Notes under the pieces: generated by a model | Told to the model about the DNA's origin: nothing | The model's database searches: none | The model's input: the letters and a program-made list of their open reading frames with translations, nothing else | Part shown: in pieces, positions 2,726-24,724 of the stretch | How the letters are laid out: the number at the start of each line of letters is the position of its first letter | Position numbering within the stretch: position 1 is the first letter of the stretch | Position numbers and translations under genes: made by a program | Source of the DNA: a virus | Reading direction: 5' to 3' (one strand) | Virus genome (UHGV): UHGV-0248979 | DNA: 64,000 nt

Positions 2726-3256
2726 TTAAGCAGTAAAGCCGTCAAGTTCACCGTCGGTGGTGGCCAGGTCAATACGATTATCAACAACTTTCGGCGTAAT
2801 TACGAAAGTTGCCATTACACCCGGTTTATAACGGAGGTTCTTTTCAGTAACGGTACAAGTTACCGTACGCAGAGTGACGCTATCGTGTTCGTCTTTCTGG
2901 TCTTCGGTGGTGTACTCAACGTCACCAGGTGCGATAGAGTCGTCAGGTTTTACTTTATTGATGTAAAACTGTAATCGGTCGCGTAGTTCGTTTTCTCCAG
3001 TCCAGAGAGCCAAATCGTCCGTTACCTCAATGCGTCCGACAACGCCAGGTTCCAGACGATCGTAATGCAGTTCGATTGCGCCTTTAAAATTTTCAGACTC
3101 TGTACGTGCGGTCATGGTAACTTTGGTATTTTTATCGCCCTTTTCAAGAGCGACAGGTTGACCAAAAGTTACCTCTTTATCAGTGACCTGATGCGGTAGC
3201 TCTGTGTTAGCAGCATTATAAAGCGCAACTAACATCATCTGGTTAGTAGCTGCCAT
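2726..3256 (-). CDS. paralog family member P1 (putative tail-associated protein); C-terminus ELDGFTA
   Basis: 176 aa; N-terminal pattern shared with five other ORFs in the window; C-terminus shared with 3324..3890. Confidence 0.6.
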   Translation of the reverse strand: MAATNQMMLVALYNAANTELPHQVTDKEVTFGQPVALEKGDKNTKVTMTARTESENFKGAIELHYDRLEPGVVGRIEVTDDLALWTGENELRDRLQFYINKVKPDDSIAPGDVEYTTEDQKDEHDSVTLRTVTCTVTEKNLRYKPGVMATFVITPKVVDNRIDLATTDGELDGFTA

Positions 3257-3307
3257 TATCTTAAATCCTTAAAATGAAAGTTAAAGAAATATCGGGGGAG
3301 GTTACCA

Positions 3308-3316
3308 CCCCCCCCC
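3308..3316 (-). repeat. homopolymeric G9 tract (C9 on the plus strand), intergenic between P2 and P1
   Basis: Nine consecutive C read directly at 3308-3316. Confidence 0.9.
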
Positions 3317-3323
3317 GAATCAA

Positions 3324-3890
3324 TTACTCTTTAGGCGCTGGTGCGGTGAAGCCATCCAGTTCACCTTCCAAACCGCTCAGTGCTACTTTCTCAATAGCCG
3401 GAGGAGTAACTTTATACGTTGCAACAGTACCTGGCAGGAACTTCAGGTGTCCAGTCACAACAGTTACTACGTAAATGGTTTTGCCTTCTTCTTCACGGGA
3501 AATAGTTTGCAGGTCGTTTTCACCGAACTCGTCATCGGTGTACCCCTTCTCAACCATGGCTGCGTTAACTTTTGCCAGGATTTTCGTTGGTGAATCGAAA
3601 TCGGTAGTAGGTGCAGTTACTTCAACTTCACCAACGATGTCGCAGGAAAGACGAGTATAGTGGAATTCTTTCTCGCCTTTGAAGTTCTGGCTTTCTGCCT
3701 TGGCGGTCAGAGTAATTTTAGTGTTGCGGCCAGCTTCTCCGGTGAAGTCAGCGACAGCACTAAAGTCAACATCAGCTACGGTGAGAGCGGAGCTCAGAGA
3801 GCTGTTTTTAGTGTTAATAAGTTCGATAAGCTGCTGTTGAAAAGTTTTAGCCATTGTTTTTACCTCGTAAGTAGTATGGGTGGTTTGCAT
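3324..3890 (-). CDS. paralog family member P2 (putative tail-associated protein)
   Basis: 188 aa; tandem paralog of P1, same ELDGFTA C-terminal motif plus a PAPKE extension. Confidence 0.6.
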   Translation of the reverse strand: MQTTHTTYEVKTMAKTFQQQLIELINTKNSSLSSALTVADVDFSAVADFTGEAGRNTKITLTAKAESQNFKGEKEFHYTRLSCDIVGEVEVTAPTTDFDSPTKILAKVNAAMVEKGYTDDEFGENDLQTISREEEGKTIYVVTVVTGHLKFLPGTVATYKVTPPAIEKVALSGLEGELDGFTAPAPKE

Positions 3891-3985
3891 AGTATTGTTC
3901 GGATTATAGAAGTGGTGTTAATAGTTATGACAGGCGGCAGAAGGGTTGCTTGTAAAATTAATTAACTTTAACTTTTTTATAAAAG

Positions 3986-4477
3986 GTGAAAAGTATGATA
4001 AAACGTTTTCTTATTGTTATGGTTGGTGTTTTTTCATTGGCAGGATGTGCCTTACAACCGAATGGTGACGGCCAATTCTCGACTGTGCCGGTGGAGCCAC
4101 ATGATATGGTTATTTACACCTGTATGGGTGCAGAGCAAGATTTTGCAAATTACAAACCTGTCGTCAGCTCGACTAATATAATGTTAGGGTCAGTAACTGT
4201 ACTCGATACTGGTGCTAACTGGGTAGCCACTTGGCCAAACGGCAAGATTGAGTCGCCGCAACTTTATAAAGATTTATTAGGTAAAGTTAATGGGAATATT
4301 GATCCTATCACAGGACAACGTTACTATCGTGTAAATGGCTTACTTTCAAAAACGCCAACGTTTGCGTATTCTACTTTAGAATATAAAACGGGTGATGGTA
4401 AAGGCATTACTTTCTTCCACTGTAAAGAAGGTGTAGCGTCTGACACTGGAACAATGCTCCATCCTGCGGAACAATAA
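3986..4477 (+). CDS. putative lipoprotein (candidate superinfection-exclusion or moron gene)
   Basis: Signal peptide with lipobox (FSLAG-C); likely true start is the ATG near 3995 with an AAAGGTG RBS; isolated plus-strand gene with its own terminator. Confidence 0.6.
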   Translation: MKSMIKRFLIVMVGVFSLAGCALQPNGDGQFSTVPVEPHDMVIYTCMGAEQDFANYKPVVSSTNIMLGSVTVLDTGANWVATWPNGKIESPQLYKDLLGKVNGNIDPITGQRYYRVNGLLSKTPTFAYSTLEYKTGDGKGITFFHCKEGVASDTGTMLHPAEQ

Positions 4478-4520
4478 AAACTACCCTACTCCTTATCGGG
4501 AGTAGGGTATATTCATTTTA
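4478..4520 (+). terminator. rho-independent terminator between convergent genes
   Basis: Hairpin ctaccctactcc-ttatcg-ggagtagggta followed by a T-rich stretch. Confidence 0.6.
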
Positions 4521-4592
4521 ACCGCCAAATCGTGCGTAAAACGCATTCTGAGCGTCTTTATACAAAATAAGGTATAAACACCTTAGAAATAG

Positions 4593-5108
4593 TTAAATCT
4601 CGACTAAGGCGCTCCAATCGATTGGTTTTTGCTTAACAACTTTCACAGTACCACGATTTGGTGACCAGAAAGTAATGTTAGGCTGGTTACGAACGTCAAT
4701 GTGCAACCAACTGATGTCACATTCAATAAAGTGAATGAACGGAAACTCGTCAGGGTTAGCAGCGATATAGTCGTGAACCTGTTTTACGGTGCTATCCAAC
4801 AACGTTGCATCAATGGCGTTACCGAATTTGTGTTGACTTCCTGAATCGGCGTAAAGCTGCAACGCACGTTGTTTATAACTACCACCCTTAGGCTTTTCTT
4901 GATTAATAAAGAAATCTAAGGTTCTTAGTCCGCGCTGTTGTGCGGCAGTTGAGTTAATCACCATTCTGCCGAAACGATTACGAATCTGTTGTAGGGAGAT
5001 CATTAACAACGGATTCATAAACCGAATTGCGGAATCGCCGTATTTGGCAATATAGGACTGTGGTACTAACTCTCTGAGTTTAAAGTTACTCGGATTTGGA
5101 TGAAACAT
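4593..5108 (-). CDS. peptidase M15-like cell-wall hydrolase (DUF882/Peptidase_M15_3-like)
   Basis: Motif SQHKFGNAIDA (SxHxxGxAxD) and a later His, typical of zinc D,D-carboxypeptidase-like M15 domains. Confidence 0.6.
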   Translation of the reverse strand: MFHPNPSNFKLRELVPQSYIAKYGDSAIRFMNPLLMISLQQIRNRFGRMVINSTAAQQRGLRTLDFFINQEKPKGGSYKQRALQLYADSGSQHKFGNAIDATLLDSTVKQVHDYIAANPDEFPFIHFIECDISWLHIDVRNQPNITFWSPNRGTVKVVKQKPIDWSALVEI

Positions 5109-5760
5109 CTTCCCTCCCAGACAGAAAAGCCCGTTTGATGTTCAGGTATTTGACATTAACGGGACAATCTGTGGTGATATCAATACGTTCGTGGTCAGGG
5201 ATTGCAGGTTCCTTAAACTCGCGAACGAATAAATAGTTTCGATTGTAATCTAACGTACGAAACGCGTTAGTGCTGTAGGATGGCTTTGCATTAGGATCTA
5301 CGTAGGCATCCCAGCCGAATTCAACAACGGCCTTATAAAATGTTTGGCAGATATAAGGCGAGATTTCCAACGACTGCATAATACGCAGGAAAGTTAAGTC
5401 AGAGAACTCTTTATCGATGAAACGCGAAACGTTACCACCCGGTGTCATGGGATAGCTACGCTCCGTGTTGCATTTTTGATAGAGTAAGTCGTGAATACAG
5501 GCCGCAGGTGCCCACGGTCCGTCAGGATGGAAAATTCCCTGGAGGTGATCAGGAATTGACGCTAAATCGGTAACGAACCCTTTCGGTGCTGTTAACCACA
5601 GTTGCGTGTCAGGCAATACACCCGTTAAATAAACCGCACGGTCTAAGTGTACGTGGTCGTGATAAATCTCGCGTAACGTAAACGGATAATGGTAATCCTC
5701 CGTTAATACAAACCACTTATTGTCTAAACGTTTATATTGAAGCTTCTCCATTACCCACAC
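5086..5760 (-). CDS. DUF1353-like phage protein
   Basis: Motif TDLASIP...HD..Y resembling the DUF1353 signature; 224 aa. Confidence 0.5.
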   Translation of the reverse strand: MWVMEKLQYKRLDNKWFVLTEDYHYPFTLREIYHDHVHLDRAVYLTGVLPDTQLWLTAPKGFVTDLASIPDHLQGIFHPDGPWAPAACIHDLLYQKCNTERSYPMTPGGNVSRFIDKEFSDLTFLRIMQSLEISPYICQTFYKAVVEFGWDAYVDPNAKPSYSTNAFRTLDYNRNYLFVREFKEPAIPDHERIDITTDCPVNVKYLNIKRAFLSGREDVSSKSE

Positions 5761-5867
5761 CTTCCCTTATAGAAACCAGAAAAATTCGTACCCACGCTTT
5801 TCGTCTTTACGTTTCCGTCCAGACGTTAACGCTTTCCACAATAGTGCTAAGAGTTTAGCAAACCAAT

Positions 5868-6458
5868 TCATTTTACTAACCCCGCCTTCACTACATAATC
5901 CGGCATTTCCCTGTACACGCGTCCGTACCAGCCGTAAGCGAATTTTTCATTCTTCTTACGCTTTTCGGAGATTTCCGTGTAGTAGGTTACCTGATGTGAG
6001 ATTAACGCAAAGATTAAGATGCCTAATCCCTCGCCTTTACGGTAATTCAGATAAGCATTCAGAGCACCTAGTGTTTTAGGTCCCATACCACCATCGGTGT
6101 CAATATCTGCGTAAAGTTTCCCTTCGTTATTTAAAACGTTGAGAATACGTTGTAACGATTTCACACAGTTAACACGGCCAGAGTTAATACCAAAATCAAA
6201 CATCCTGTCGGCGAGTATCGGCGAGATAGCGAAAATCTCATCGAGTTTAAGTTTCTTCCACCAACCACGATCGTAAATATCAAACGCTTGCGCACGGGTC
6301 AGATCTTTCATTCTTCCTTTGTACCCGTATTCGCGTGCAGTTGTCAGTGTTACCCCGTGACAGGTTTCCCCACCTTTATCGTCAGGGTCATTGACGTACC
6401 CACCCTCTAAATCTGTTTTTGATTCAATAATACCTTCTTTAGTCCAACGTTCGGCCAT
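5868..6458 (-). CDS. endolysin, glycoside hydrolase family 108-like with peptidoglycan-binding domain
   Basis: N-terminal EGGYVNDPDDKGGETCHGVT signature typical of GH108 lysozymes; C-terminal region consistent with a PG-binding module. Confidence 0.75.
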   Translation of the reverse strand: MAERWTKEGIIESKTDLEGGYVNDPDDKGGETCHGVTLTTAREYGYKGRMKDLTRAQAFDIYDRGWWKKLKLDEIFAISPILADRMFDFGINSGRVNCVKSLQRILNVLNNEGKLYADIDTDGGMGPKTLGALNAYLNYRKGEGLGILIFALISHQVTYYTEISEKRKKNEKFAYGWYGRVYREMPDYVVKAGLVK

Positions 6459-6491
6459 TTTCTTTAACTCCTCTTTTTACACAAAAAAAGA

Positions 6492-6520
6492 AAAGAGGGT
6501 GGGATTACCCCACCCTGTAG
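6492..6520 (-). terminator. rho-independent terminator
   Basis: Hairpin agggtggg-attacc-ccaccct with a T-run on the minus strand. Confidence 0.6.
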
Positions 6521-6997
6521 TTATTTCTTCTTAGCGCGCGATGGCTTAGCTGGCGGTGTCTCGACAGACGGTTTACGCGCAACACGCACTGTAAAACCAC
6601 CGACCCAGGTTAGACACTCGGGGCGGAAGAAAATACCGTGCTCGATTGCACTGCCGTCTAGCGGCAACGCACCAACCTGCTCTACCCACACATCGTCTTC
6701 GGTAAGGGTTAAGCCATACTGCTCGTTAATTACAGGCAGCAAGTCCGCAGTCGTGGTTGCTGTCTCAACTAACAGTTTCGGCAATACGTTGTGGAAATAC
6801 AAACCTGCATCAATGCGGTTATACTGGAACGTTTGCTTATTAACATAACCGAGATTTTTAACCGGCACAACCGTAATTTCGGTGTTGTACGTACCGGTAC
6901 TTACGACGGGCTCACCCAATGTGACTTTGGCGGTGTCGAGCTCGGCGTCTGGGTTAGCCTTTTTAATAAGGTCGAAGATAGTTTCTTGACTGGTCAT
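6521..6997 (-). CDS. paralog family member P3 (putative tail-associated protein)
   Basis: 158 aa; shares the N-terminal pattern of the family. Confidence 0.55.
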   Translation of the reverse strand: MTSQETIFDLIKKANPDAELDTAKVTLGEPVVSTGTYNTEITVVPVKNLGYVNKQTFQYNRIDAGLYFHNVLPKLLVETATTTADLLPVINEQYGLTLTEDDVWVEQVGALPLDGSAIEHGIFFRPECLTWVGGFTVRVARKPSVETPPAKPSRAKKK

Positions 6998-7010
6998 TAC
7001 TGTAATCCTC

Positions 7011-7859
7011 TTAATCTAAGAATCCCGGTAAGACCGAATTAGTCTTGGCTAATTCAATCTTCGACTTCGGACGATCGGTTCCGTTAAAGTGAATTAACAG
7101 TTTACCGGTCAGGTTAGAACACATACCGCTTAGGGCGAGTACCAGCACACGCGTGTACTTCGCATTTGCGCCTTCGAAACCTGCGGTAGGGCCATCGTAG
7201 ATAACCTTAGCACCGAACAAGTTATTAGCAGCGTTCTTAGGTACGCTTACCCATTTCTCATCAACAACGTTAGTCAGTTTAGTAGCTAACTCTACTAAGT
7301 CTACGGTGCCGTTGATGGTAATTGGATCAAGGTAATCTTTTTCTGCGGTGAAGTCAATTGGGTAAGAATAAACCGCAGCGTTACCTTTCTTAGTGGACGG
7401 ATACTCTACCAGGTTTTCTAATTGAGTAACAGGTAGCAATTTAGCCAGATCAATAGGATCGCGTAGCGTAAGCGTCACTTCGCCACACCACTCGTAAGAT
7501 TTCTCGTTAGCGGTAAGTTGGTGGGTTTTACCTTCAACTTTCGCATCAACGATATCCGATGGCAGAATATTTAAATCGTATTTTGCGTTGATTGCGTTAA
7601 GCAAATCTGAGGCGGTTACAACACCGTCGTTACCGAATACCAACTCACCTGTTAGGTATTCGGGCAAATTACGACGATGGTAAGTCACCGTTAAAGTAGT
7701 AGACTCATCGCCTTTGAGTTTAGAAGTCAGAACCACCTGGGTATCAACCCCAGTACCAGTAGGTTCGCCGATATCAACATCACTGAAGGTCAATGGCGGA
7801 ACAATATTGTTTTCAGTGTTGATGAGTTTTAGCAGTTTCTGTTTTGACGTAAGAGACAT
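7011..7859 (-). CDS. paralog family member P4 (putative tail-associated protein)
   Basis: 282 aa; N-terminus LLKLINTENN...FSDVDIGEP matches the family pattern. Confidence 0.6.
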   Translation of the reverse strand: MSLTSKQKLLKLINTENNIVPPLTFSDVDIGEPTGTGVDTQVVLTSKLKGDESTTLTVTYHRRNLPEYLTGELVFGNDGVVTASDLLNAINAKYDLNILPSDIVDAKVEGKTHQLTANEKSYEWCGEVTLTLRDPIDLAKLLPVTQLENLVEYPSTKKGNAAVYSYPIDFTAEKDYLDPITINGTVDLVELATKLTNVVDEKWVSVPKNAANNLFGAKVIYDGPTAGFEGANAKYTRVLVLALSGMCSNLTGKLLIHFNGTDRPKSKIELAKTNSVLPGFLD

Positions 7860-7989
7860 CGCGTTAACTCACAATAAGTAAAAAAGGTTTAAGAGGTCGT
7901 TTTACATCCCTCAGCCAGCATAGGAATAGTCGAGTAGAAGGTAAGTAAAGCAGCGTCAAAATAACAAAAAAAGAAAAGGGAAAGAAAAT

Positions 7990-8022
7990 TAATTCCGCTA
8001 TAGACCGAAGCCTATAGCGGAG
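7990..8022 (-). terminator. rho-independent terminator
   Basis: Hairpin ccgctatag-accgaagc-ctatagcgg flanked by an A/T run. Confidence 0.55.
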
Positions 8023-8027
8023 TAAGG

Positions 8028-8459
8028 TTAGCGAACGTTGTGTGCTAAGTACATCAGCGTACGAGTGTCGATGTCACGAGAAGTTTGTGACATCTGACTC
8101 AGTAACTTGTTGGCAGTAGGGTCATTGTAAACACGACTTAACCATTCGTCAACCATTTCTGGTACAGTGTCGACAAGAAGCGGATAGTTAAGATTTTCCA
8201 GTGTGTATTCAACGAATTCGTGCATCAGATTCTGGTCACGATGCATAGTGTCACCTAACTCACCTACAGGGTACTCTTCGCGAGGACGTTTACCCCAGCT
8301 ACAGATGTGCATGTAGTTAGTATTCACAATTTCCTGATATTCTTCTAACTTAACTAAATCGAAGTCAGTATTTGGACGACAGAAACCTGCTAGAACGCCC
8401 AAAGCAATCGGATTGTTACGAATGTAGTTACGGATTTCATCATTTAATACGAAAAACAT
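8028..8459 (-). CDS. hypothetical protein, paralog of 9320..9748
   Basis: 143 aa; shared N-terminal pattern LN-E-R-YIR--P----VLA; RBS CCTAAAGGAG. Confidence 0.6.
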   Translation of the reverse strand: MFFVLNDEIRNYIRNNPIALGVLAGFCRPNTDFDLVKLEEYQEIVNTNYMHICSWGKRPREEYPVGELGDTMHRDQNLMHEFVEYTLENLNYPLLVDTVPEMVDEWLSRVYNDPTANKLLSQMSQTSRDIDTRTLMYLAHNVR

Positions 8460-8535
8460 TTTAATACTCCTTTAGGTAAATACAATAATAGAGGGGTGGT
8501 AATCCACCCCTTGGTTGAATTTAGAATGTCGTTAA

Positions 8536-9297: not shown

Positions 9298-9319
9298 GTC
9301 ATTTTTTCCTTTTGGTAAA

Positions 9320-17523: not shown

Positions 17524-18036
17524 CTACTCTCCAAAAGTTAAGATTTTATTGTCAAACGTCAACACGACAGAATCATCACCGATGCCACACGGTGTTTCAT
17601 CTGGGCCGAAAACCACCACGGAGAACTGTCCTTTATAAGCGATGGAATTCGGAGCGATGCTAAGCGTTACCGCGTCTTTACCTACCGTGAACGACTGGTC
17701 GGTTAAATCGTCGGTTTGTAAGTTAGCACCACAAACGGCATTGACGGATTCGATAAGATCGTGTGCATTAAACCCTTCACCTCTTACTTTTACCAGAATA
17801 GGTTGTTGGTTTAACCACCGCTCTGCGGTTAAACGGTTGTAGTAGATTTGCAACGTTCTGTTTCCAGGACGTTTAATCTTTACAATGGCAGTGGAGTCAC
17901 GATCCATTTCATCACTGGTTTTTACGTCACTGACTTCAACCTCGTTCTCTTGCAAGTCAAGTTGGAGGTCATGGTTAACCAGTGAAATAACCATGTTAAG
18001 TGAAGTTAGTGATAAATCTGGTGTGAATTTTTCCAC
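17524..18036 (-). CDS. paralog family member P5, translationally coupled to the tailspike gene
   Basis: 170 aa; GTG start preceded by an AGGAGG RBS; stop 3 nt before the tailspike ATG. Confidence 0.6.
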   Translation of the reverse strand: MEKFTPDLSLTSLNMVISLVNHDLQLDLQENEVEVSDVKTSDEMDRDSTAIVKIKRPGNRTLQIYYNRLTAERWLNQQPILVKVRGEGFNAHDLIESVNAVCGANLQTDDLTDQSFTVGKDAVTLSIAPNSIAYKGQFSVVVFGPDETPCGIGDDSVVLTFDNKILTFGE

Positions 18037-18100: not shown

Positions 18101-18103
18101 ACG

Positions 18104-18131
18104 ATTATTTTCAACCGCTTTCAGTTGAAAA
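18104..18131 (-). terminator. hairpin at the 3' end of the adhesin-like gene
   Basis: 12-bp perfect stem attattttcaac/gttgaaaataat with loop cgctttca. Confidence 0.5.
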
Positions 18132-18134
18132 TAA

Positions 18135-18642
18135 TTAGCTAATTCTCAAATCACGCAGTGCGCCTGTCGATTTCATCACGTTTTGGAACGCAGCGCTGAT
18201 GTTATTAGTCCAGTAATAATGCTGTCCGTTAATAACCTGCTGATAGGCCAGCGCGCAGGTGTTACCACCTAAATTTACGGTAATGTTAGAGGCTCTGCCT
18301 CCTTGTAAGTAAACCGCTAAAGTAGGCTTTGCGTTGGCAACTATCGTCGTTAACTGTAACTCAATACCTACTAAAGTTCCCACCCCGCAGTTACCCGCGT
18401 TTTGAATGGTTCCCTGATTTTTCTGGTTTAACGGCCAGCTTGGTCCTACTGCGCCCCATTTCTTACCTAAAGAATCGCTATATGCAGCGGTTGCAATTTT
18501 ACAGCCCATAGATCGTCCCACCATTTGACTCATCATAAAAGGTCTACCCAATCCTAATTTACTACCAGCAGCGCTCATCCATTGTTCGCCCGTTTCGTTC
18601 TTGGCCGAAGAACCGACCCACGAACCGGTTACCCCCCCCCAT
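18135..18642 (-). CDS. adhesin-like tail fibre-associated protein, paralog B; 5' end put out of frame by a G9 tract
   Basis: ORF track gives 18135..18578. The same frame is open upstream (…GSWVGSSAKNETGEQW) and matches paralog A's N-terminus; an ATG with AGGAG RBS at 18642-18640 is +1 out of frame across the G9 run. Confidence 0.6.
18632..18640 (-). repeat. homopolymeric G9 tract overlapping the start codon of adhesin-like paralog B
   Basis: Nine consecutive C at 18632-18640; the minus strand reads AT-GGGGGGGGG-TAACC. Confidence 0.9.
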
Positions 18643-18654
18643 CGCGATCTCCTG

Positions 18655-18885
18655 TTAAGATTTTCTACATGTTATTGAATCGAAAGCACCACGCCCAACC
18701 CAACGCCAATTATAATGATGATCAGCTTTATAAAGTGTGTATCTGCCCTGCTTTTTTACGTCGAAAATATTGATCGTAGTCTCTTCATTACCCAGCTTAG
18801 CTGTGCCGTAACATACAGGTTCGGGTAGTTGTTGACATCCACTTACTGTAAGCAATGCGAAACCCAGTAAAACTTTTCTTAACAT
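18655..18885 (-). CDS. small lipoprotein between the two adhesin-like genes (candidate receptor-masking protein)
   Basis: 76 aa; signal peptide with lipobox (LLTVSG-C); mature part about 59 aa with further Cys. Confidence 0.6.
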   Translation of the reverse strand: MLRKVLLGFALLTVSGCQQLPEPVCYGTAKLGNEETTINIFDVKKQGRYTLYKADHHYNWRWVGRGAFDSITCRKS

Positions 18886-18895
18886 CTTTCTGTCC

Positions 18896-19441
18896 TTAGA
18901 CTACACTTATTGAAATTGTTGCACCGTTCTGATTAAATAACCAGTTGGTTGCCGTCTTAGCCTCATAGCGCCGGACGCCGTTACTGTAGGAGTACGGTAG
19001 AAAAGTAATCTTCGTTCCGTTAAACGAAAGCGTAATATTCTGATTTGGTCCATTGGTTAGGGCCATGTAGATAATACCAGTATTTTGTACTTGGCTAAGA
19101 TGTGTGACGCTACAACCCAAGATCGAACCTGACACCGAACCGGCCGCATTTTGTGTTTGCACACGATTCGATACTGTAGAACCAGCACCCGTTGTTGTAG
19201 AGTTGTTCGAATACCCCCCATACGTATTTGTAATAGGAACCCACTGCGTGTTCGTAGCCTGCACCAAAACAACATAGGTTGATCGGCCTACAACGAGTTT
19301 AAGATCCTCTACGCTACGCCCGACCATCTGCGACATGTTAAATGGCGTGCTCAGTTTAAGCTTATTACCTGCCACACTCATCCACTCCTGACCGGTTACT
19401 GCCTTTGCTGAGCTTCCAACCCAGCCGGATGCTACCCCCAT
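18896..19441 (-). CDS. adhesin-like tail fibre-associated protein, paralog A
   Basis: 181 aa, Gly/Ser/Thr/Asn-rich; ATG with GGAGGA RBS just downstream of the fibre gene terminator. Confidence 0.65.
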   Translation of the reverse strand: MGVASGWVGSSAKAVTGQEWMSVAGNKLKLSTPFNMSQMVGRSVEDLKLVVGRSTYVVLVQATNTQWVPITNTYGGYSNNSTTTGAGSTVSNRVQTQNAAGSVSGSILGCSVTHLSQVQNTGIIYMALTNGPNQNITLSFNGTKITFLPYSYSNGVRRYEAKTATNWLFNQNGATISISVV

Positions 19442-19451
19442 AAATCCTCCA

Positions 19452-19481
19452 AACTAAAATAGGGGGATTACTCCCCCTATC
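19452..19481 (-). terminator. hairpin terminator after the tail fibre gene
   Basis: Hairpin tagggggagtaatccccctat followed by a T-rich run on the minus strand. Confidence 0.6.
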
Positions 19482-19482
19482 T

Positions 19483-22400
19483 TTAATTCCCCTTGAGTTC
19501 TTTAAGCTCTTGGCGAAGAGTTTTCATGCCTTCTACTAACAACGCAATAACACCATTGTAATTTAGACGTAAACGTTTTTCGCCTGAAATGGCATCGTCG
19601 TCCTCGGACACAAGTTCAGGTAACGCTTCTAATGCGTCCTGAGCAATTAGACCTACAGAAGTCTGCCAACCGTCATCAGGATGCTGAATTTCGTACAAAT
19701 AACCGGTTAGTAACTCTAACCGATCCAAAGCTTTATCCAGCTTCACCAGATTACGTTTGTTACGACGGTCAGAACGAATCTGTACGTCGTTAAACGAACC
19801 GTTACCGTTGCCAGTAACGTTATGTCCAAAGTTTACTTGGCCGTTAGAATTATTAAAAGACAACGGGCGTAATCCGTTCCAGGAACCCGCTGCGGCTTGT
19901 CCGGCGTCGGTTACTAAGAAATAGGTATTGGCACCGTCGTTACGTAAAATAAAACCGTAGGTACCGTAAGCGATTCGAAAATCAGGGTATTTAGTGGCCA
20001 ATTTACCATTAACGGTTAAATCACCGCCTACAGTACCGCCCCCTGACGGTAACGCGCCCACTTCCGCAGCAGTTGGCTTGTTTCTCGTATTGTAAGCACG
20101 ACGCCAGCCTGGTGAGTATCCATCGCCGTTAAATACGTAGATAAACTCCGCATTAGTGAGTGCTCCGCCGACGCTCGTCGTTGTGGCGGTCGTTATACGG
20201 ATCGTGTAGTTGTTTGTGCTGTTGCCGTTACTAATGACTTCTATAACGGCCCCAGCTAACGGAATGACACCACAACCCGTCTCGCTGTGAGGTATGGACG
20301 CACTGGCGGCATAAGCCCACGCACAGCGAGCAACCCACGATCTTGTGGTAAATGCGCCGTTATTTTTCAATAACGTCACTAGCTGTGCTGTAGTTATTGC
20401 ACCGCCATTAGCGCCAGTTTCTAACCAACCACTAGGTGATGCCGGACAACCTATTTCGGCTGGCCCTAACGCTATATTTCTAGTGCCATCAAACGCAATA
20501 CCATTGATGGTTCTTGCGGTTTGCAACTTTGTTGCCGTGGCTGCGTTTCCGGTGGTCGACTGATTCCCTGTTTGGTTTACTCCAGGTAAACTGATGTCTT
20601 TAGTACCATCAAAAGCTACGCCACCTATATTTCGAGCAGTCTGTAGCTTAGTCGCTGTCGCCGCATTCCCCGTAGTCGATTGGTTACCGGTTTGGTTTAC
20701 ACCAGGAAGATTAACGTCTTTTGTCCCATCGAACACCACACCGCCGATCTTACGTGCGGTTTGTAACTTAGTAGCGGTCGCTGCATTACCTGTCGTATTC
20801 TGGTTGCCTTGCTGGTTAACGCCCGGTAAATTGATATCACCTGTACCGTCAAAGCTAACGCCTCCGATCCTGCGAGCGGTTTTCAGTTTCGTCGCGGTAG
20901 CGGCGTTGCCGGTAGTATCCTGATTACCTGTGGCATTTACACCAGGAATGCTATCACGGGCAGTATAAACTTGTGCCCAATCTGACCACGGCGCATCAGC
21001 AGTATCACGTCGACTACGAATATAAACGGGTGCGTGCGCACCGCTCGTCCCCGACCATCCGATTAACAGTTCCCCTTCGCCTAGCGCAGCAGAACCGCCC
21101 AAATGCAGTAAGTTACCATAAGCGGTTGGATAACCGTTATTGTAAACTTCGTACATCTGAATACCGGGTGTACCTTTGTTTGATCCAGTCAGTGCAGTAA
21201 CACGTCCACGTCCTACCAACGTGTTGATATTGATGTCTCTAGACCCATCAAATTTCACACCGTTGATGTTTCGAGCCGTTTGTAATTTGGTTGCGGTTCC
21301 CGCGTTCCCAGAGGTGTTTTGATTACCCTGTTGGTTTACACCAGGGAGGCTAATGTCTCCGCTACCGTCGAAACTTACACCGCCGATTAAACGGGCTGTT
21401 TTCAGTTTCGTTGCCGTAGCAGCATTGCCTGTTAACTCACCTGATAACCCTTTTGCAAAGGTCTGTTTTTCTGCCCACGTATGCGCTGCATTCAATACGG
21501 GCATCTGGCGGCTAGTAATAGTACGTTTACCCTTTTCACCAGCGACGCGAACAGCAAAGAAGCGATAGTTAGCAGTAGACACTGTACCACGCCAGACCAA
21601 CATACTCCGGCCAGTACCGGTGTCCTCCGACGCCCCTACAAGAATAGTAACCAAGTTACCGTCGATAACACCCCAATCCATTCCCGCAGGAATGTTTTTC
21701 ATGGTATTCAATGGTGTACTTATCATCTGGCCAGGAACGAAGTCGAAGGTTTGCCAGTCTAACGGATCTACCTTAGCAGCAACCCCACCGATCCCTAAAG
21801 CCAACGGGAGTGAATAGGATGTGAAAATCTCTCGCCATTCGCTCCAGGCATTTCCTGTACGAATTCGTTGGAACTTGCGACCTTTCGAAGTTGCGCCTGT
21901 ACCGTATGTGGTATAATTTTGTTCAACACCTGAACCGTCTAAGCGTAAGGTAACTTCGCAAACGCCTAGCAAGGTTGCGCCAGCAGAGTCTGTTAACGGA
22001 CCGTCTGTAGCCTCGCCGGTAACACTAAAGCGACCCGGTTTAGTTAAGTCGTTAAAGCTACCCTTATAGTAGGCACCGTCTACCTGATACCCAACCTGAA
22101 TCCAATCTTCCCACTGCGGATTAGACGAATCCCAAGTCGCAGTCAAACCACGGACATACATCGTACCACGACGAGTGGTGTAACGTTGTAAACGTCCATA
22201 AAGACCGCCTTCCATGACTTCTAATACGCCTTGCGCATTACCGCCCTCTTCAGGATAATGTCTGTCGAACACCGCTAACGAACTGGACGAGTTACGCCAG
22301 TTACCCATGTGCTCAGCGCCGCCTAAGGAGTTCAGATCGATCGATGTAGATAACGGGCGTACACCTGTAGTTACCATTCTCCACGGTGACCACGGGCCAT

Positions 22401-23922
22401 TAGTTCCGTTCCACGCGGCTGACAACATGCGGTTGTACACGTTACCATTACGGCAGGTAAAACGTTGCGCTCCACTGTAGTTGCCCGCTTTATACACTTC
22501 TAGATAACCTACCGCACCGTCTTCCGGGAAGTGTTTTGCTATTGATGCGTTTGTTGATGTCGACTTGGACCATGTTCCTGTGTAATTGGCATCTGGAGCA
22601 AATGTGTTAATATCAGCATCTGCGGGCATTTCACCACGGAAACGCAGATAGGTATCAGGAGATAGACCAATATTGCGAGCAAAGGTTTCTTTATTGGGGA
22701 TATCAGCACCGTTAGAGTTTTTCTGTAACGCAGAGTTCGCTTTATCTACAGTGGCTTTTAATCCCAAGAAATTGATGATATCCGCAGTTGTCCCTTTTGC
22801 TAACAAGGTTCTGGCGGTTTCTGTAAAGTCAGTTAACCCGACTTTATTAGTGCCAGTGAAATAAGGGAGCTTGTTTGCTGCGGTTGTGACTGCGGCAATA
22901 GCAGTAAGTAGTGGACTGATAGGTTGCTTCTGTGCAAGTTTCTCAGTAATCGTTGTTGCGAAGTTAGGGTCATTACCTAACGCCGTAGCTAATTCCGCTA
23001 AGGTATCTAACGTCTCAGGTGAAGAACCAACCAATTCCGCGATAGCAGCACGCACCCAGGCCGTTGTGGAGATGCTCGTGTCGTTCGAGTCCTTTGGGGG
23101 CGTTGGTGATGTCGGGTTACCCGTAAAATTCGGCGAATGTTTATCGGCTTTTAACTGTAATTCGTCGTTCAGCTGTTTAACCGTGGACGGTGTGGCAGCC
23201 TCCGTCACGGATTCGCTAGTCAGGGTATTGTTAAGTTTAACGATACCTTTACCGGTCGTACTAGCGTCAACTAAACCCTGTGCAGCGATTTTCTCCGCAC
23301 GCAGAGCGGCTGACTCCGAGCGTGTAGCTGCGCCTTCTGAGCTTTCTTTATCTTTCGTAACCTGCGCAGCAACCTTCTCCACCGCGCCCTTACTGGCCTC
23401 AATTGAAGCCGCAGTATTTGCGATACTGGTAGCGGTCTGTTGAACCTGTCCGGCCCGTTGCGTAACCGTTTCTGCTTTCTTAGTTACATCAGCCGCTACA
23501 GCTGTCACAGATTGTTCGCTTGCGGCGACAGCTTGAGCCTTCTCATTTACTGATTGTGAAACAGTATCTACGGCAGTTTTTGCTGCTAAAACTTCAGCGT
23601 GTTTTTTGTTAACCTCCGCAGTTTTAGTGGCGACGGTTCCCGCTTGCTCATTAACTGTGGAAGCTAAAGTGGTGGTCTGTTGCTTCGCTGTTTCTGCTAA
23701 ATCTTTAGCTTTCGTAGCTTCTGTTGCGGACTGTTGTGATTTGGCCGCAGCCGTTTGTGCATCAGCAACCGCACTTCTGACGGTGTCAATGTCCGCAACG
23801 ATCTCGCGGACTGGTAACTTATAATCTTTTTCGTCTTTCGAAAAAAGTAAAACGCCTTCACCGATATCCCCGGTGTACGGATGTAAGTCGTGTAAACGTA
23901 TTTTCTTTACCGCTTTAGCCAT
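19483..23922 (-). CDS. long tail fibre protein with C-terminal intramolecular chaperone (peptidase S74-like) domain
   Basis: 1479 aa; Ala/Thr/Gln-rich N-terminal region; six ~40-aa repeats (GNQxTTGNAATATKLQTAR.IGGV.FDG); C-terminal SDRRNKRNL...LVEGMKTL motif typical of self-cleaving chaperone domains. Confidence 0.85.
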   Translation of the reverse strand: MAKAVKKIRLHDLHPYTGDIGEGVLLFSKDEKDYKLPVREIVADIDTVRSAVADAQTAAAKSQQSATEATKAKDLAETAKQQTTTLASTVNEQAGTVATKTAEVNKKHAEVLAAKTAVDTVSQSVNEKAQAVAASEQSVTAVAADVTKKAETVTQRAGQVQQTATSIANTAASIEASKGAVEKVAAQVTKDKESSEGAATRSESAALRAEKIAAQGLVDASTTGKGIVKLNNTLTSESVTEAATPSTVKQLNDELQLKADKHSPNFTGNPTSPTPPKDSNDTSISTTAWVRAAIAELVGSSPETLDTLAELATALGNDPNFATTITEKLAQKQPISPLLTAIAAVTTAANKLPYFTGTNKVGLTDFTETARTLLAKGTTADIINFLGLKATVDKANSALQKNSNGADIPNKETFARNIGLSPDTYLRFRGEMPADADINTFAPDANYTGTWSKSTSTNASIAKHFPEDGAVGYLEVYKAGNYSGAQRFTCRNGNVYNRMLSAAWNGTNGPWSPWRMVTTGVRPLSTSIDLNSLGGAEHMGNWRNSSSSLAVFDRHYPEEGGNAQGVLEVMEGGLYGRLQRYTTRRGTMYVRGLTATWDSSNPQWEDWIQVGYQVDGAYYKGSFNDLTKPGRFSVTGEATDGPLTDSAGATLLGVCEVTLRLDGSGVEQNYTTYGTGATSKGRKFQRIRTGNAWSEWREIFTSYSLPLALGIGGVAAKVDPLDWQTFDFVPGQMISTPLNTMKNIPAGMDWGVIDGNLVTILVGASEDTGTGRSMLVWRGTVSTANYRFFAVRVAGEKGKRTITSRQMPVLNAAHTWAEKQTFAKGLSGELTGNAATATKLKTARLIGGVSFDGSGDISLPGVNQQGNQNTSGNAGTATKLQTARNINGVKFDGSRDININTLVGRGRVTALTGSNKGTPGIQMYEVYNNGYPTAYGNLLHLGGSAALGEGELLIGWSGTSGAHAPVYIRSRRDTADAPWSDWAQVYTARDSIPGVNATGNQDTTGNAATATKLKTARRIGGVSFDGTGDINLPGVNQQGNQNTTGNAATATKLQTARKIGGVVFDGTKDVNLPGVNQTGNQSTTGNAATATKLQTARNIGGVAFDGTKDISLPGVNQTGNQSTTGNAATATKLQTARTINGIAFDGTRNIALGPAEIGCPASPSGWLETGANGGAITTAQLVTLLKNNGAFTTRSWVARCAWAYAASASIPHSETGCGVIPLAGAVIEVISNGNSTNNYTIRITTATTTSVGGALTNAEFIYVFNGDGYSPGWRRAYNTRNKPTAAEVGALPSGGGTVGGDLTVNGKLATKYPDFRIAYGTYGFILRNDGANTYFLVTDAGQAAAGSWNGLRPLSFNNSNGQVNFGHNVTGNGNGSFNDVQIRSDRRNKRNLVKLDKALDRLELLTGYLYEIQHPDDGWQTSVGLIAQDALEALPELVSEDDDAISGEKRLRLNYNGVIALLVEGMKTLRQELKELKGN
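20470..21450 (-). repeat. tandem ~117-nt coding repeats (phage tail fibre repeat units) inside the fibre gene
   Basis: Near-identical nucleotide units in two blocks (4 + 2 copies) separated by an insert; boundaries approximate. Confidence 0.7.
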
Positions 23923-24127
23923 GATATTTAATTCTCTATCTGGAGCTAAAAGATCTGGGAAGGTAAAACACCTCCCCCAACATTTTTATAAGCGGATTAT
24001 TATACTGGTTTTAATCCATCATCTTCTAACGTGAAAGTGATGCCCAACTCCGCGTTCTCATGATCTGGGTTTACTAAGTCTTGATAAACGTTTGCTTTGG
24101 CCTCCATTACCAGAAAAACCGTCAAGT

Positions 24128-24724
24128 TCATGTAGCCGGGTTTTCTTCAGCGGAGTCTCCATCTGGAACCTCAAATGTAAGAACAGCATCGTCACCAATA
24201 CAGAAGATTGCATCTTCTTCGTTTGCTAATGCCCGTTCAGTTTTATCAAATAACGTCACCATAAACGCATTCACCCACGCTGGAGAATCGTCAGCAACGT
24301 TGACAGCAATAGGATCGTTACCTAAAGTGATATCTGAAGCATGTAAATCCTCGGGTTGTAAGTTCGTTCCGCAGAATTCATTTACAACACCTAAAATGTC
24401 ACGAAGGTTGTCTTCGGTACCATCTAACGAAATCAAAATAGGTTCGGACGCTAACACTTTGTCCGCATCCAAGCGGTCGTAATAAACAACTACAGAAGCA
24501 CCATCAGGTTTCCTGATTTTTGTAATCTCTGTCAGTGTGTTACGACGCGACGTAGTCGGGGACAGGTTTGCCATAGTGTTGCTAATACGAATTTCGCTTA
24601 GAGACAACCGTGAACCGTTATCGTGGTTGATTAAAGCGACCACCAATTCGGCTGAGGACAGACTTAAATCAGGTACGTATGTGGCCACTATAGCCTCCCA
24701 GATCAAAAAAAAAATAAAAAACAT
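24128..24724 (-). CDS. paralog family member P6, upstream of the tail fibre gene
   Basis: N-terminal region (VPDLSLSSAELVVALINHDNG) homologous to P5; true start probably a GTG near 24681 with GGGAGG RBS (the ORF-track N-terminus translates a poly-T run). Confidence 0.55.
   Translation of the reverse strand: MFFIFFLIWEAIVATYVPDLSLSSAELVVALINHDNGSRLSLSEIRISNTMANLSPTTSRRNTLTEITKIRKPDGASVVVYYDRLDADKVLASEPILISLDGTEDNLRDILGVVNEFCGTNLQPEDLHASDITLGNDPIAVNVADDSPAWVNAFMVTLFDKTERALANEEDAIFCIGDDAVLTFEVPDGDSAEENPAT

What the first reader, a model, noticed from the sequence alone, without database searches (positions are those of the whole stretch)
2726..24724. Six-member paralog family placed next to receptor-binding genes
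ORFs at 2726-3256, 3324-3890, 6521-6997, 7011-7859, 17524-18036 and 24128-24724 share an N-terminal pattern (L[IV]xL[IV]NxxN ... DVxFGxP ... T.V.L ... YxRL) and variable C-termini. Two are tandem pairs; P5 is translationally coupled to the tailspike gene and P6 lies just upstream of the fibre gene. This looks like a diversifying family of fibre adaptors, chaperones or small receptor-binding modules. I do not recognise the family.
Basis: partly seen in the sequence, partly recalled or inferred. Interest (0 to 1): 0.5.

Follow-up and report, generated by a model that had tools for sequence, protein, structure and literature searches.

The report
Known jumbo-phage virion paralogs (DUF7941)
The six small genes are real relatives of each other, but they belong to a described family of jumbo-phage particle proteins (Pfam DUF7941, SPN3US "paralog family B"), and two of them each sit directly in front of a receptor-binding gene that starts with the same 41-residue attachment peptide.

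Summary
All six ORFs exist on the minus strand, and all score above the Pfam cut-off for PF25613 (DUF7941). A seventh member lies at 43896-44423, and a probable eighth at 39024-39686.

The family is known. It is SPN3US "paralog family B" (virion proteins by mass spectrometry). Goslar gp22/gp23 belong to it, and so does phiKZ gp127, whose N-terminal domain is modelled in the outer peripheral baseplate (PDB 9xqd). The window is a divergent SPN3US-like chimallivirus.

"Next to receptor-binding genes" is true only for P5 and P6, the SPN3US gp122 type. Each precedes a receptor-binding gene:
- P5 precedes a NanS-p-type sialate O-acetylesterase.
- P6 precedes a 1479-aa fibre.

Both products begin with one conserved ~41-aa anchor. 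This pairing of a gp122-type gene with an anchor-bearing gene recurs in SPN3US, Asesino and Klebsiella phage Eowyn, but not in the Goslar region examined.

P1-P4 lie beside the endolysin, where SPN3US has a 17-gene array; here only two genes remain.

Most likely the proteins are modular "socket plus plug" units of baseplate-attached chains, with P5/P6 as fibre adaptors. That role is inferred, not shown. A chaperone role is not excluded, because SPN3US gp122 is barely detected in virions.

The parts
2726..3256 (-). P1, short DUF7941 protein (176 aa). The N-terminal half of the NTD, its own middle region, and a C-terminal ...GELDGFTA plug. A co-ortholog, with P2, of the abundant SPN3US virion protein gp160.
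   Evidence: Pfam 36.3 bits; phrog_4862 4.8e-35; 37% identity to SPN3US gp160, 9e-29
3324..3854 (-). It ends ...GELDGFTAPAPKE. It is the closest window relative of SPN3US gp160.
   Evidence: Pfam 44.2 bits; 49% identity to gp160, 2.6e-45; SD GAGGT lies before ATG 3854 and none before 3890
6521..6997 (-). P3, NTD-only DUF7941 protein (158 aa). It has no LDGF plug and ends in a basic tail, PAKPSRAKKK.
   Evidence: Pfam 105.2 bits; 38% identity to the NTD of SPN3US gp141; alignments
7011..7859 (-). P4, the only full-length DUF7941 protein (282 aa): NTD, linker, CTD, plus an extra C-terminal plug-like tail KIELAKTNSVLPGFLD. Ortholog of SPN3US gp138, the first gene of the 17-gene array.
   Evidence: Pfam 180.3 bits over model positions 5-275; 44% identity to the first gene of the SPN3US array (ACQ60_gp128 = original gp138), 1.3e-71; AF2 pLDDT 83; Foldseek hit to 9xqd_0, E 1.5e-6; the tail is absent from other full-length homologs
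17524..18036 (-). P5, gp122-type DUF7941 protein (170 aa, GTG start). NTD plus an acidic two-strand tail, DDSVVLTF DNKILTFGE. It is the first gene of the esterase cassette.
   Evidence: Pfam 51.6 bits; 32% identity to SPN3US gp122; junction TAG TAG ATG with the SD inside P5
15400..17520 (-). The 41-aa anchor (nt 17398-17520) is fused directly to the enzyme, which begins at about residue 45.
   Evidence: PDB 3pt5 NanS 3.4e-122 over residues 45-364 and 6yp6 NanS-p 1.7e-38; Pfam SASA + DUF6645; anchor HMM 1e-25
24128..24691 (-). P6, gp122-type DUF7941 protein (187 aa from GTG 24691). Ortholog of SPN3US gp122. It is the first gene after a terminator hairpin and lies upstream of the fibre gene.
   Evidence: Pfam 64.8 bits; 46% identity to gp122, 3.4e-46; start and SD; relatives are called at 186 aa
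24722..24753 (-). Intrinsic-terminator-like hairpin (13 pairs) with a T-run, immediately upstream of P6.
24058..24162 (-). A 34-codon remnant of a gp123-like anchor gene (METPLKKTRLHELDGFSG...). It overlaps the 3' end of P6 in another frame. It is what remains after deletion of the gp123/gp124-like gene pair that relatives still carry.
   Evidence: Anchor HMM E 3.2e-7; translation and comparison with L017; an intact 174-aa anchor gene plus a 1001-aa gene occupy this place in L011, L017 and L018
24000..24131 (-). 43-aa ORF whose ATG overlaps the P6 stop codon (ATGA). It is also called in relatives. Function unknown.
19483..23922 (-). 1479-aa tail fibre. It has the 41-aa anchor at its N-terminus (nt 23800-23922), then a coiled-coil shaft, Phage_fiber_2 repeats, Gp34_trimer and a Peptidase_S74 intramolecular chaperone domain.
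   Evidence: Pfam; PHROG tail-fibre families; anchor HMM 2.7e-27
18135..19441 (-). Two Tfa/gp38_N-type tail-fibre assembly or adhesin genes (18896-19441 and 18135-18578) downstream of the fibre. These are the recognisable chaperones of the cassette.
   Evidence: phrog_1121 6.9e-53 and 2.2e-31; PDB 6f45_D, N-terminal match
43896..44423 (-). Ortholog of the SPN3US virion protein gp83. It overlaps the downstream DUF7208 gene (gp84 ortholog) by 8 nt.
   Evidence: HMM; phrog_2935 2.7e-48; Pfam 51.1 bits; 65% identity to gp83
39024..39686 (-). Probable eighth, very divergent member (220 aa, phrog_10571). Ortholog of the SPN3US virion protein gp91. It has an NTD-like N-terminus and a TLDGLNY plug motif near the C-terminus.
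   Evidence: hhalign against the NTD profile gives E 2e-4, the best non-member among 108 ORFs; linker-motif HMM E 3.7e-4, top hit in the window; 44% identity to gp91, which ends ...KLNGFRYREFV; P2 weakly hits phrog_10571; there is no Pfam hit

Best explanation
The ORFs are DUF7941 proteins (SPN3US 'paralog family B') of a divergent SPN3US-like chimallivirus.

**Shown**
- Each has the ~140-aa N-terminal domain (NTD) whose fold is that of phiKZ gp127. That domain is modelled in the outer peripheral region of the phiKZ baseplate.
- The NTD is followed by different tails:
  - an LDGF-type motif in P1, P2 and P7, and twice in P4;
  - two acidic beta-strand repeats in P5 and P6;
  - only a basic tail in P3.
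- The LDGF motif is a family hallmark. It sits 11-18 residues after the NTD, and in natural tandem-NTD proteins it lies between successive NTDs.

**Inferred**
- The NTD acts as a 'socket' and the tail as a 'plug'. The proteins would then chain head-to-tail into flexible filaments or branches rooted on the peripheral baseplate, as proposed for Goslar gp22/gp23.
- P1/P2 (gp160 type) and P3/P4 (gp141/gp138 type) would be the bulk chain units.
- P5 and P6 (gp122 type) form a distinct subfamily. Each opens a receptor-binding cassette whose receptor-binding protein (RBP) starts with a conserved ~41-aa anchor, K-K-x-R-[IL]-H-[ED]-L-x-x-[FY]...[LV]-L-x-S-K-[DE]-E-K-[DE]-Y-K-[LI]-P.
- Most likely P5 and P6 are adaptors that tether these exchangeable RBPs to the particle. 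The anchor would be the portable attachment peptide.
For: **Family identity**
- Pfam hits lie above cut-off for 7 ORFs.
- A profile of the six reader ORFs finds PHIKZ127 in PDB 9xqd at E 1.7e-6.
- The AF2 model of P4 (pLDDT 83) has a single significant Foldseek match, 9xqd_0, 'outer peripheral region in the phage phiKZ baseplate complex': E 1.5e-6, probability 1.0, TM 0.66.
- Orthologs are gp138, gp141, gp160, gp83 and gp122 of SPN3US.
- gp138-154, gp160 and gp83 are found in CsCl-purified SPN3US particles; gp160 gives 184-264 spectral counts.

**Socket and plug**
- The LDGF-type motif follows 76 of 270 NTDs, against 5.2 +/- 2.3 in shuffles.
- SPN3US gp145, gp148, gp151, gp160 and gp83 end in ...GELDGF or a close variant.
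- In the AF2 model of the natural 2xNTD protein P0083, the internal LDGF linker has pLDDT 91-95. The same kind of motif at the free C-terminus has pLDDT 35-71.
- Proteins with 3 to 8 tandem NTDs exist.
- The Goslar preprint reports gp22 filaments by negative stain and AF3 head-to-tail dimers.

**Adaptor role of P5 and P6**
- The esterase, the fibre, an alternative 206-aa protein in relatives, SPN3US gp123 and the SPAsTU homolog all start with the anchor. No other complete ORF in the window has it; the only further match is the remnant beside P6.
- Every gp122-type gene in the window, 14 related loci, SPN3US and SPAsTU is followed by an anchor gene or by its decayed remnant. None of the P1-P4 or P7 types is.
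- In 24 phage records the anchor lies about 15 nt after, or overlapping, the gp122-type hit.
- In Klebsiella phage Eowyn, four gp122-type genes are interleaved with five fibre genes, all of which bear the anchor.
- In the esterase the anchor is joined directly to an otherwise ordinary prophage NanS-p enzyme at about residue 45. This shows the anchor is a portable module.
- Long family members carry lectin, Ig, SPRY or propeller domains after the NTD.
Against: - No protein-protein contact was tested.
- SPN3US gp122 was not detected in wild-type virions, and gave 0/0/5 spectral counts in three mutant preparations. gp123 and gp124 were detected (PMC5694885).
- The SPN3US authors assign the family to the head, because members persist in a tailless mutant.
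- Gene adjacency can reflect co-inheritance of a cassette rather than binding.
- Some relatives have two anchor-bearing genes after one gp122-type gene, so there is no simple 1:1 gene ratio.
- The Goslar fibres examined (gp25, gp26, gp29) lack the anchor, so the system is not universal.
- The Goslar mass-spectrometry preparation also contained non-virion proteins.
- The pLDDT contrast may partly reflect alignment depth.
Confidence: 0.6

Rival explanations
1. P5 and P6 are non-structural assembly factors (chaperones or attachment catalysts) for the downstream receptor-binding proteins. They would be needed to fold the proteins or to mount them by their anchors, and would then be released.
For: - SPN3US gp122 is almost absent from purified particles (0/0/5 spectral counts), while gp123 and gp124 are present.
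- There is tight translational coupling to the downstream gene.
Against: - They share the NTD fold of structural family members.
- The cassettes already contain recognisable Tfa/gp38-type genes and a Peptidase_S74 intramolecular chaperone, and those lie downstream or inside the fibre gene.
- The Goslar preprint reports all ten Goslar DUF7941 proteins in its virion preparation.
Confidence: 0.2
2. The family consists of head-internal or ejection proteins, as assigned for SPN3US paralog family B. The genomic proximity to fibre genes would then be incidental.
For: - Family B members were found in particles of the tailless mutant 64_112(am27).
- gp141 and gp160 are estimated at >300 copies per capsid.
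Against: - The phiKZ gp127 NTD is modelled in the outer peripheral baseplate.
- According to the Goslar preprint, purified Goslar gp22 forms filaments by itself, so such material could co-purify with heads.
- Relatives carry lectin, Ig or propeller domains.
- The gp122 type is linked to anchor-bearing RBPs across several genera.
Confidence: 0.12
3. The short paralogs are themselves small receptor-binding proteins that diversify to follow host receptors.
For: - P2 (58%) and P5 (65-99%) vary more among close relatives than core genes do.
- The C-termini are variable.
Against: - The short members have no recognisable binding domain. They consist of the NTD plus a 15-30-aa tail.
- Binding domains occur only in long relatives.
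- The variation is no greater than that of neighbouring accessory genes.
Confidence: 0.05

Closest known systems
Pfam PF25613 (DUF7941); Goslar gp22/gp23 and eight further Goslar paralogs (bioRxiv 10.64898/2026.04.21.720040)
   Same: - The same domain family.
- P4 has the gp22 architecture (NTD-linker-CTD).
- P1, P2 and P7 have the gp23 architecture (NTD plus linker only, ending in an LDGF/ADGF motif).
- The same neighbourhood beside the endolysin.
   Different: - Sequence identity to the Goslar proteins is low: P4 matches the Goslar genome at 30%, and P1 and P2 match gp23 at 34-35% over partial alignments.
- The Goslar fibres examined lack the 41-aa anchor, and no gp122-type plus anchor cassette was seen there.
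- Here the receptor-binding domains are on separate anchor-bearing proteins, not fused to DUF7941 as in Goslar gp86, gp92 and gp161.
SPN3US paralog family B (gp83, gp138-154, gp160/161, gp237, possibly gp122; PMC5105663, PMC5694885)
   Same: - One-to-one or co-orthology: P4-gp138, P3-gp141/139, P1/P2-gp160, P5/P6-gp122, P7-gp83.
- The same gene order relative to the major capsid gene, the endolysin and the radical-SAM genes.
   Different: - The 17-gene tandem array is reduced to two genes, P4 and P3.
- gp160 and gp122 are each duplicated.
- The gp123/gp124 pair is deleted, leaving a remnant.
- Identity is 32-65%.
phiKZ gp127 (with gp126), outer peripheral baseplate, PDB 9xqd
   Same: The NTD fold and sequence signature are shared: profile E 1.7e-6, and Foldseek E 1.5e-6 with TM 0.66.
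   Different: - About 19% identity.
- Only the NTD of gp127 is modelled in the deposited structure. The partners of the tails are therefore unknown.
N-terminal anchor or adaptor systems of multi-RBP phages (for example CBA120 tailspikes, G7C gp66/gp63.1, T4 gp12-type N-terminal repeats). This comparison is from my own knowledge, and from 10.64898/2026.05.12.724579 for the general principle.
   Same: The logic is the same: a conserved N-terminal attachment module followed by exchangeable receptor-binding or enzymatic domains, with several RBPs per virion.
   Different: - The anchor here is a short ~41-aa peptide of its own sequence type.
- It is always encoded next to a DUF7941 gp122-type gene.
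- No homology to those systems was looked for beyond Pfam and PHROG, which gave none.

Membership tests
Pfam PF25613 DUF7941 | Whole-protein HMM score above the curated gathering cut-off (27 bits) | tested here: met
   P1 36.3, P2 44.2, P3 105.2, P4 180.3, P5 51.6, P6 64.8 and P7 51.1 bits. The candidate at 39024-39686 has no Pfam hit.
Pfam PF25613 DUF7941 | N-terminal globular domain with the fold of phiKZ gp127 residues 1-150 | tested here: met
   Tested for P4 only. The AF2 model has pLDDT 83. The single significant Foldseek PDB hit is 9xqd_0, E 1.5e-6, TM 0.66. A sequence profile of the six reader ORFs hits the same chain at E 1.7e-6.
Pfam PF25613 DUF7941 | Linker after the NTD carrying the L-[DN]-G-[FL] motif | tested here: inconclusive
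   The motif is enriched in the family: 76 of 270 NTDs against 5.2 in shuffles. It is present in P1, P2 and P7, and in P4 as a degenerate internal copy plus a C-terminal LPGF. P5 and P6 have acidic strand repeats instead. P3 lacks it.
Pfam PF25613 DUF7941 | Head-to-tail self-association into filaments | not testable with these tools
There is only indirect support, from the natural 2xNTD protein: internal linker pLDDT 91-95 against 35-71 for the free tail.
Pfam PF25613 DUF7941 | Encoded by a chimallivirus | tested here: met
   The best relatives are Seoulvirus and Erwinia jumbo phages. The SPN3US-type major head protein, split polymerase and internal head protein are in the window. Seoulvirus is classified in Chimalliviridae. 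Caveat: the domain also occurs in Spiroplasma proteins.
SPN3US paralog family B | Orthology to named members | tested here: met
   P4-gp138 44%, P3-gp141 38%, P2-gp160 49%, P1-gp160 37%, P6-gp122 46%, P5-gp122 32%, P7-gp83 65%.
SPN3US paralog family B | Long tandem array (17 genes, gp138-gp154) upstream of the endolysin | tested here: not met
   Only P4 and P3 occupy this position in the window and in its close relatives.
SPN3US paralog family B | Presence in purified virions | not testable with these tools
   The evidence is by orthology only. SPN3US gp83, gp138-154 and gp160 were detected. gp122 gave 0/0/5 spectral counts.
Tail-fibre assembly chaperones (Tfa / gp38 type) | Homology to Tfa/gp38 families and a position downstream of the fibre gene | tested here: not met
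   No Tfa/gp38 hit for any of P1-P7. P5 and P6 lie upstream of the receptor-binding genes. The true Tfa-type genes are at 18896-19441 and 18135-18578.
Receptor-binding-protein adaptor (functional class) | Conserved pairing with genes for proteins that carry a common attachment module | tested here: met
   Applies to P5 and P6 only. A gp122-type gene is followed by an anchor-bearing gene in the window, 14 related loci, SPN3US, SPAsTU, Asesino and Eowyn.
Receptor-binding-protein adaptor (functional class) | Physical binding to the RBP and to the baseplate | not testable with these tools
   No complex modelling or experiment was available.

The most novel reading that the evidence does not exclude
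A subset of chimalliviruses (SPN3US-like, Erskinevirus, Eowynvirus and this lineage) uses a dedicated plug-and-socket system for receptor-binding proteins. A gp122-type DUF7941 protein would be the socket on the peripheral baseplate or on DUF7941 chains. A portable ~41-aa N-terminal peptide would be the plug. Its first motif, [ED]-L-x-x-[FY], resembles the family's own ELDGF tail. The plug can be grafted onto any horizontally acquired module, even a soluble prophage NanS-p esterase. The same LDGF-type plug also appears at the C-termini of non-family virion proteins (gp82 and gp91 orthologs). That would make DUF7941 NTDs a general docking hub.
Probability: 0.35. Interest if true: 0.55.

Novelty: new member of a known kind. 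Interest (0 to 1): 0.35.

Why it matters
The family itself is not new, so the finding as written is mainly an annotation result. Its value lies in what this genome adds to an open question about chimalliviruses: where the very abundant DUF7941 / family B proteins sit, and what they do. The SPN3US work assigns them to the head. The phiKZ structure and the Goslar preprint place them on the baseplate or in filaments.

This lineage has the family in a stripped-down form, 7-8 genes against 20 or more in SPN3US. It also shows that one subfamily is tied gene-by-gene to receptor-binding proteins that share a portable 41-aa attachment peptide.

If the adaptor reading is right, it gives a simple rule for finding and swapping host-range determinants in these jumbo phages. 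It also gives a direct genetic test, a gp122 amber mutant in SPN3US.

Tried and rejected
- **Chance similarity.** Rejected. All members exceed the Pfam cut-off.
- **AF2 of a P5 + GS-linker + anchor chimera with a paired alignment.** No complex could therefore be modelled.
- **The search for related loci on viral contigs with the gp122-type alignment.** It returned only 9 loci, mostly close relatives. I used tblastn on annotated phages instead.
- **The search for homologous proteins with the 7-member profile.** Near-identical relatives saturated it, and it gave no fusion architectures. The representative search supplied those.
- **Do the RBP anchors match the LDGF linker profile?** Only the remnant scored (E 1.9), and the intact anchors did not. 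Plug mimicry is therefore a hypothesis, not a result.
- **Natural fusions of the NTD with the anchor in 228 family proteins.** None found.
- **The anchor in Goslar fibres.** Absent.
- **Other.** Rfam gave no hits in the window. The 470-aa N-terminal part of the L022 fusion protein had no Pfam or PDB sequence match, but it matches tail-fibre PHROGs.
- The megablast coordinates are relative to the query (add 1999). I first misread the 75% hit as P1; it is the 171-aa gene at 4593-5108.

Full report
**1. Observation**

The six ORFs exist as stated, all on the minus strand.
- A multiple alignment shows the shared N-terminal pattern, with Y and R of YxRL invariant.
- Pairwise BLASTP links only P1-P2 (35% identity, 1e-25) and P5-P6 (34%, 2e-30) strongly.
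- All six nevertheless score above the curated cut-off of Pfam PF25613, DUF7941 (36-180 bits against 27).
- All six hit PHROG 'virion structural protein' families. The similarity is not chance.
- An HMM built from the six finds a seventh member at 43896-44423.
- A profile-profile scan of all 108 ORFs of at least 90 aa places one further ORF, 39024-39686, next after the seven (E 2e-4).
- That ORF is also the top window hit of an independent HMM of the family's linker motif (E 3.7e-4).
- Its SPN3US ortholog gp91 is a virion protein that ends with the same kind of motif. I count it as a probable eighth member.

Two start codons need correction.
The likely start is GTG 24691, behind GGGAGG. Gene callers give 186 aa in relatives.
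- P2 probably starts at ATG 3854, behind GAGGT.

**2. What the window is**

- tblastn of P4 finds Erwinia and Salmonella SPN3US-like jumbo phages at 44-46% identity.
- The window also holds the SPN3US-type major head protein, polymerase, helicase and internal head protein.
- Gene order follows SPN3US from gp75 to about gp163.
- Seoulvirus is in Chimalliviridae.
- No phage in the annotated collection is close at the DNA level.
- Relatives about 90% identical in P4 occur on 221-227 kb contigs in Salmonella, E. coli and Shigella assemblies and in metagenomes.

**3. The family is known**

RefSeq locus tags of SPN3US run opposite to the original gene numbers: ACQ60_gpN equals gp(266-N). This is checked with the major capsid protein gp75, and the mapping reproduces the 17-gene array gp138-gp154.

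| Window ORF | SPN3US relative | Identity |
|---|---|---|
| P4 | gp138 | 44% |
| P3 | NTD of gp141 | 38% |
| P2 | gp160 | 49% |
| P1 | gp160 | 37% |
| P6 | gp122 | 46% |
| P5 | gp122 | 32% |
| P7 | gp83 | 65% |

- These proteins are 'paralog family B' of Thomas et al. 2016 and Ali et al. 2017. The family has 20 members, all found in purified particles, with gp141 and gp160 at more than 300 copies.
- The authors assigned the family to the head, because members persist in a tailless mutant.
- A 2026 preprint on Goslar names the family by its Pfam domain. It reports ten paralogs in virion preparations (gp23 about 2140 copies, gp22 about 580).
- It also reports filaments of purified gp22 by negative stain, AF3 head-to-tail dimers, and a fit of phiKZ gp126-gp127 into the outer peripheral baseplate.
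- My own checks agree on the fold. A profile of the six reader ORFs finds PHIKZ127 in PDB 9xqd (E 1.7e-6).
- An AF2 model of P4 (pLDDT 83, two confident domains) has that chain as its only significant Foldseek match (E 1.5e-6, TM 0.66).
- The family is large: 2480 cluster representatives at E <= 1e-3.

**4. Anatomy**

- Only P4 has the full NTD-linker-CTD architecture. The rest are an NTD plus a tail.
- In 227 family representatives an L-[DN..]-G-[FLY] motif follows 76 of 270 NTDs, peaking 11-18 residues after the domain. Shuffles give 5.2 +/- 2.3.
- P1, P2 and P7 end with this motif (GELDGF, ALDGF).
- P4 has a degenerate internal copy plus an extra C-terminal LPGF tail that other full-length homologs lack.
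- SPN3US gp145, gp148, gp151, gp160 and gp83 also end in GELDGF or a close variant.
- P5, P6, gp122 and four Eowyn proteins instead end in two acidic beta-strand repeats, for example DDSVVLTF-DNKILTF.
- P3 has neither kind of tail.
- Natural proteins with two, three or eight NTDs in tandem exist, and in the two-NTD proteins inspected the motif lies between the two NTDs.
- In an AF2 model of one such 2xNTD protein the internal LDGF linker is confident (pLDDT 91-95). The equivalent motif at the free C-terminus is not (35-71).
- That contrast fits a tail that is ordered only against a following NTD, that is, head-to-tail docking. It is indirect evidence, because no contacts are returned and alignment depth differs between the two regions.

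**5. P5, P6 and the receptor-binding genes**

- The gene after P5 is not a classical tailspike. It is a NanS-p-type 9-O-acetyl sialate esterase (PDB 3pt5 3e-122 over residues 45-364; 6yp6 2e-38).
- The gene after P6 is a 1479-aa fibre with a Peptidase_S74 domain, followed by two Tfa/gp38_N-type genes.
- The two products share their first 41 residues:
  - esterase: MSQPIGKKRIHELDNFSGDLKGALVLLSKEEKEYKIDIAKL
  - fibre: MAKAVKKIRLHDLHPYTGDIGEGVLLFSKDEKDYKLPVREI
- Relatives share the same start in an alternative 206-aa protein that replaces the esterase, and in a 709-aa protein.
- An HMM of this anchor finds no other complete ORF in the window.
- It does find SPN3US gp123 and its SPAsTU homolog, which are the genes directly after gp122.
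- Across the window, 14 related loci, SPN3US and SPAsTU, every gp122-type gene is followed by an anchor-bearing ORF or by its decayed remnant. The two genes overlap or lie within 250 nt. None of the other subtypes has such a neighbour.
- In 24 annotated phage genomes the anchor lies about 15 nt after, or overlapping, the gp122-type match.
- In Klebsiella phage Eowyn, a different genus, four gp122-type genes are interleaved with five fibre genes that all begin with the anchor (E 1.6e-6 to 1.3e-3).
- The Goslar fibres examined lack the anchor.
- In the window a 34-codon remnant (METPLKKTRLHELDGFSG...) overlaps the 3' end of P6 exactly where relatives have an intact gp123-like gene followed by a 1001-aa gene. 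This lineage has therefore deleted that pair.
- P5 ends TAG TAG ATG, with the esterase SD inside its last codons.

**6. Interpretation**

- The identity of the family is secure. The mechanism is inferred.
- The most economical reading is the socket-and-plug chain model of the Goslar preprint. To it I add that gp122-type members are adaptors for RBPs that carry a portable anchor.
- Against the adaptor role: SPN3US gp122 was not detected in wild-type virions, and gave 0/0/5 spectral counts in three mutant preparations, whereas gp123 gave 6-8 and gp124 gave 48-130. A released assembly factor therefore remains a serious rival.
- The head assignment from SPN3US conflicts with the phiKZ structure. 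Self-assembling filaments that co-purify with heads could reconcile the two, but that is speculation.
- P1-P4 are not next to receptor-binding genes. They lie beside the endolysin (GH108 + PG_binding_3), a DUF1353 protein, a DUF4376 protein and radical-SAM genes.

**7. Novelty**

- This is a new lineage's complement of a known family. It has a reduced array and duplicated gp160-type and gp122-type genes.
- The Goslar preprint does not describe the gp122-type plus anchor cassette. A Klebsiella RBP atlas that covers Eowynvirus never mentions DUF7941. I searched only the held library.
- The resemblance between the anchor's [ED]-L-x-x-[FY] motif and the ELDGF plug is suggestive but not statistically supported.

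Noticed in passing
window 15400-17520 (-): The 'tailspike' is a complete prophage-type NanS-p 9-O-acetyl sialate esterase, with the 41-aa virion anchor fused directly at about residue 45 and no shaft between them. It may be a virion-borne sialate de-O-acetylase on a jumbo phage of enterobacteria. Relatives replace it with an unrelated 206-aa anchor-bearing protein.
   Followed up: partly
window 39024-39686 (-): A 220-aa protein (phrog_10571, ortholog of the SPN3US virion protein gp91) with a weak DUF7941-NTD-like N-terminus and a TLDGLNY plug motif. It is a probable eighth, unannotated member. SPN3US did not list gp91 in family B.
   Followed up: partly
window 44431-46626 (-): The 731-aa gp82 ortholog, directly upstream of P7, ends ...INDLEGFTLDQL, and SPN3US gp82 ends ...DMDGFRLDQLPK. 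This is a conserved LDGF-like C-terminal motif on a protein outside the family, which hints that other virion proteins plug into DUF7941 domains. It is weak statistically (E 3.3).
   Followed up: no
window 24000-24162 (-): A remnant of a deleted gp123-like anchor gene overlaps the P6 3' end, and a conserved 43-aa ORF starts at the P6 stop codon (ATGA). Relatives L011, L017 and L018 keep the intact 174-aa and 1001-aa genes here.
   Followed up: yes
window 6521-7859 versus L001 20001-37762 (SPN3US): The 17-gene tandem array of SPN3US and SPAsTU (gp138-gp154) is represented by only two genes here and in all close relatives. Within the SPN3US array, gp145-gp153 look like a triplicated three-gene unit: a long DUF7941 protein ending in GELDGF or GELNGF, followed by two ~300-330-aa proteins ending in ELV/ELI.
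   Followed up: partly
L022 4573-6507: In one related 225-kb contig the P5-type domain is the C-terminal part of a 644-aa ORF. Its first 470 aa match the C-terminal part of tail-fibre PHROGs (1e-181), and there is no start codon at the junction. It is either a natural fusion of a fibre receptor-binding region with the adaptor, or a recombination or assembly artefact.
   Followed up: partly
proteins P0086, P0095, P0081; PMC13375240: The NTD occurs in up to 8-11 tandem copies in single polypeptides. It also occurs outside phages: in Spiroplasma Spaid-like proteins and in a 1496-aa protein with the Mycoplasma domain DUF285. This contradicts the statement that the module is exclusive to chimalliviruses.
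   Followed up: partly
window 11060-11118: An intergenic element, AT-rich with the hairpin GGTGAGAGT...ACTCTCACT, is 87-95% identical to unannotated intergenic DNA of Erwinia jumbo phages (Huxley, Machina and others) although the flanking genes are far more diverged. It could be a conserved promoter or 5' leader. There is no Rfam match.
   Followed up: no
window 18486-18620: A 135-nt stretch at the 5' end of the second Tfa-like gene is 96% identical to Escherichia phage CMS-2020a (109 kb). This indicates recent exchange of fibre-chaperone sequence with an unrelated E. coli phage.
   Followed up: no
whole window; loci L004-L012: The phage has no close relative in the annotated phage collection. 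Relatives 90-99% identical in most genes of this region occur as 221-227 kb contigs inside assemblies labelled Salmonella enterica, E. coli and Shigella flexneri, and in metagenomes. This suggests a common but uncultured or carrier-state jumbo phage lineage.
   Followed up: partly
window 2000-21000 (-): Terminator-like hairpins are about twice as frequent as in shuffles (36 against 15.7 +/- 4.1). They bracket the paralog genes: 8021-7994, 6516-6496, 3318-3292, 2688-2662 and 15396-15362.
   Followed up: no
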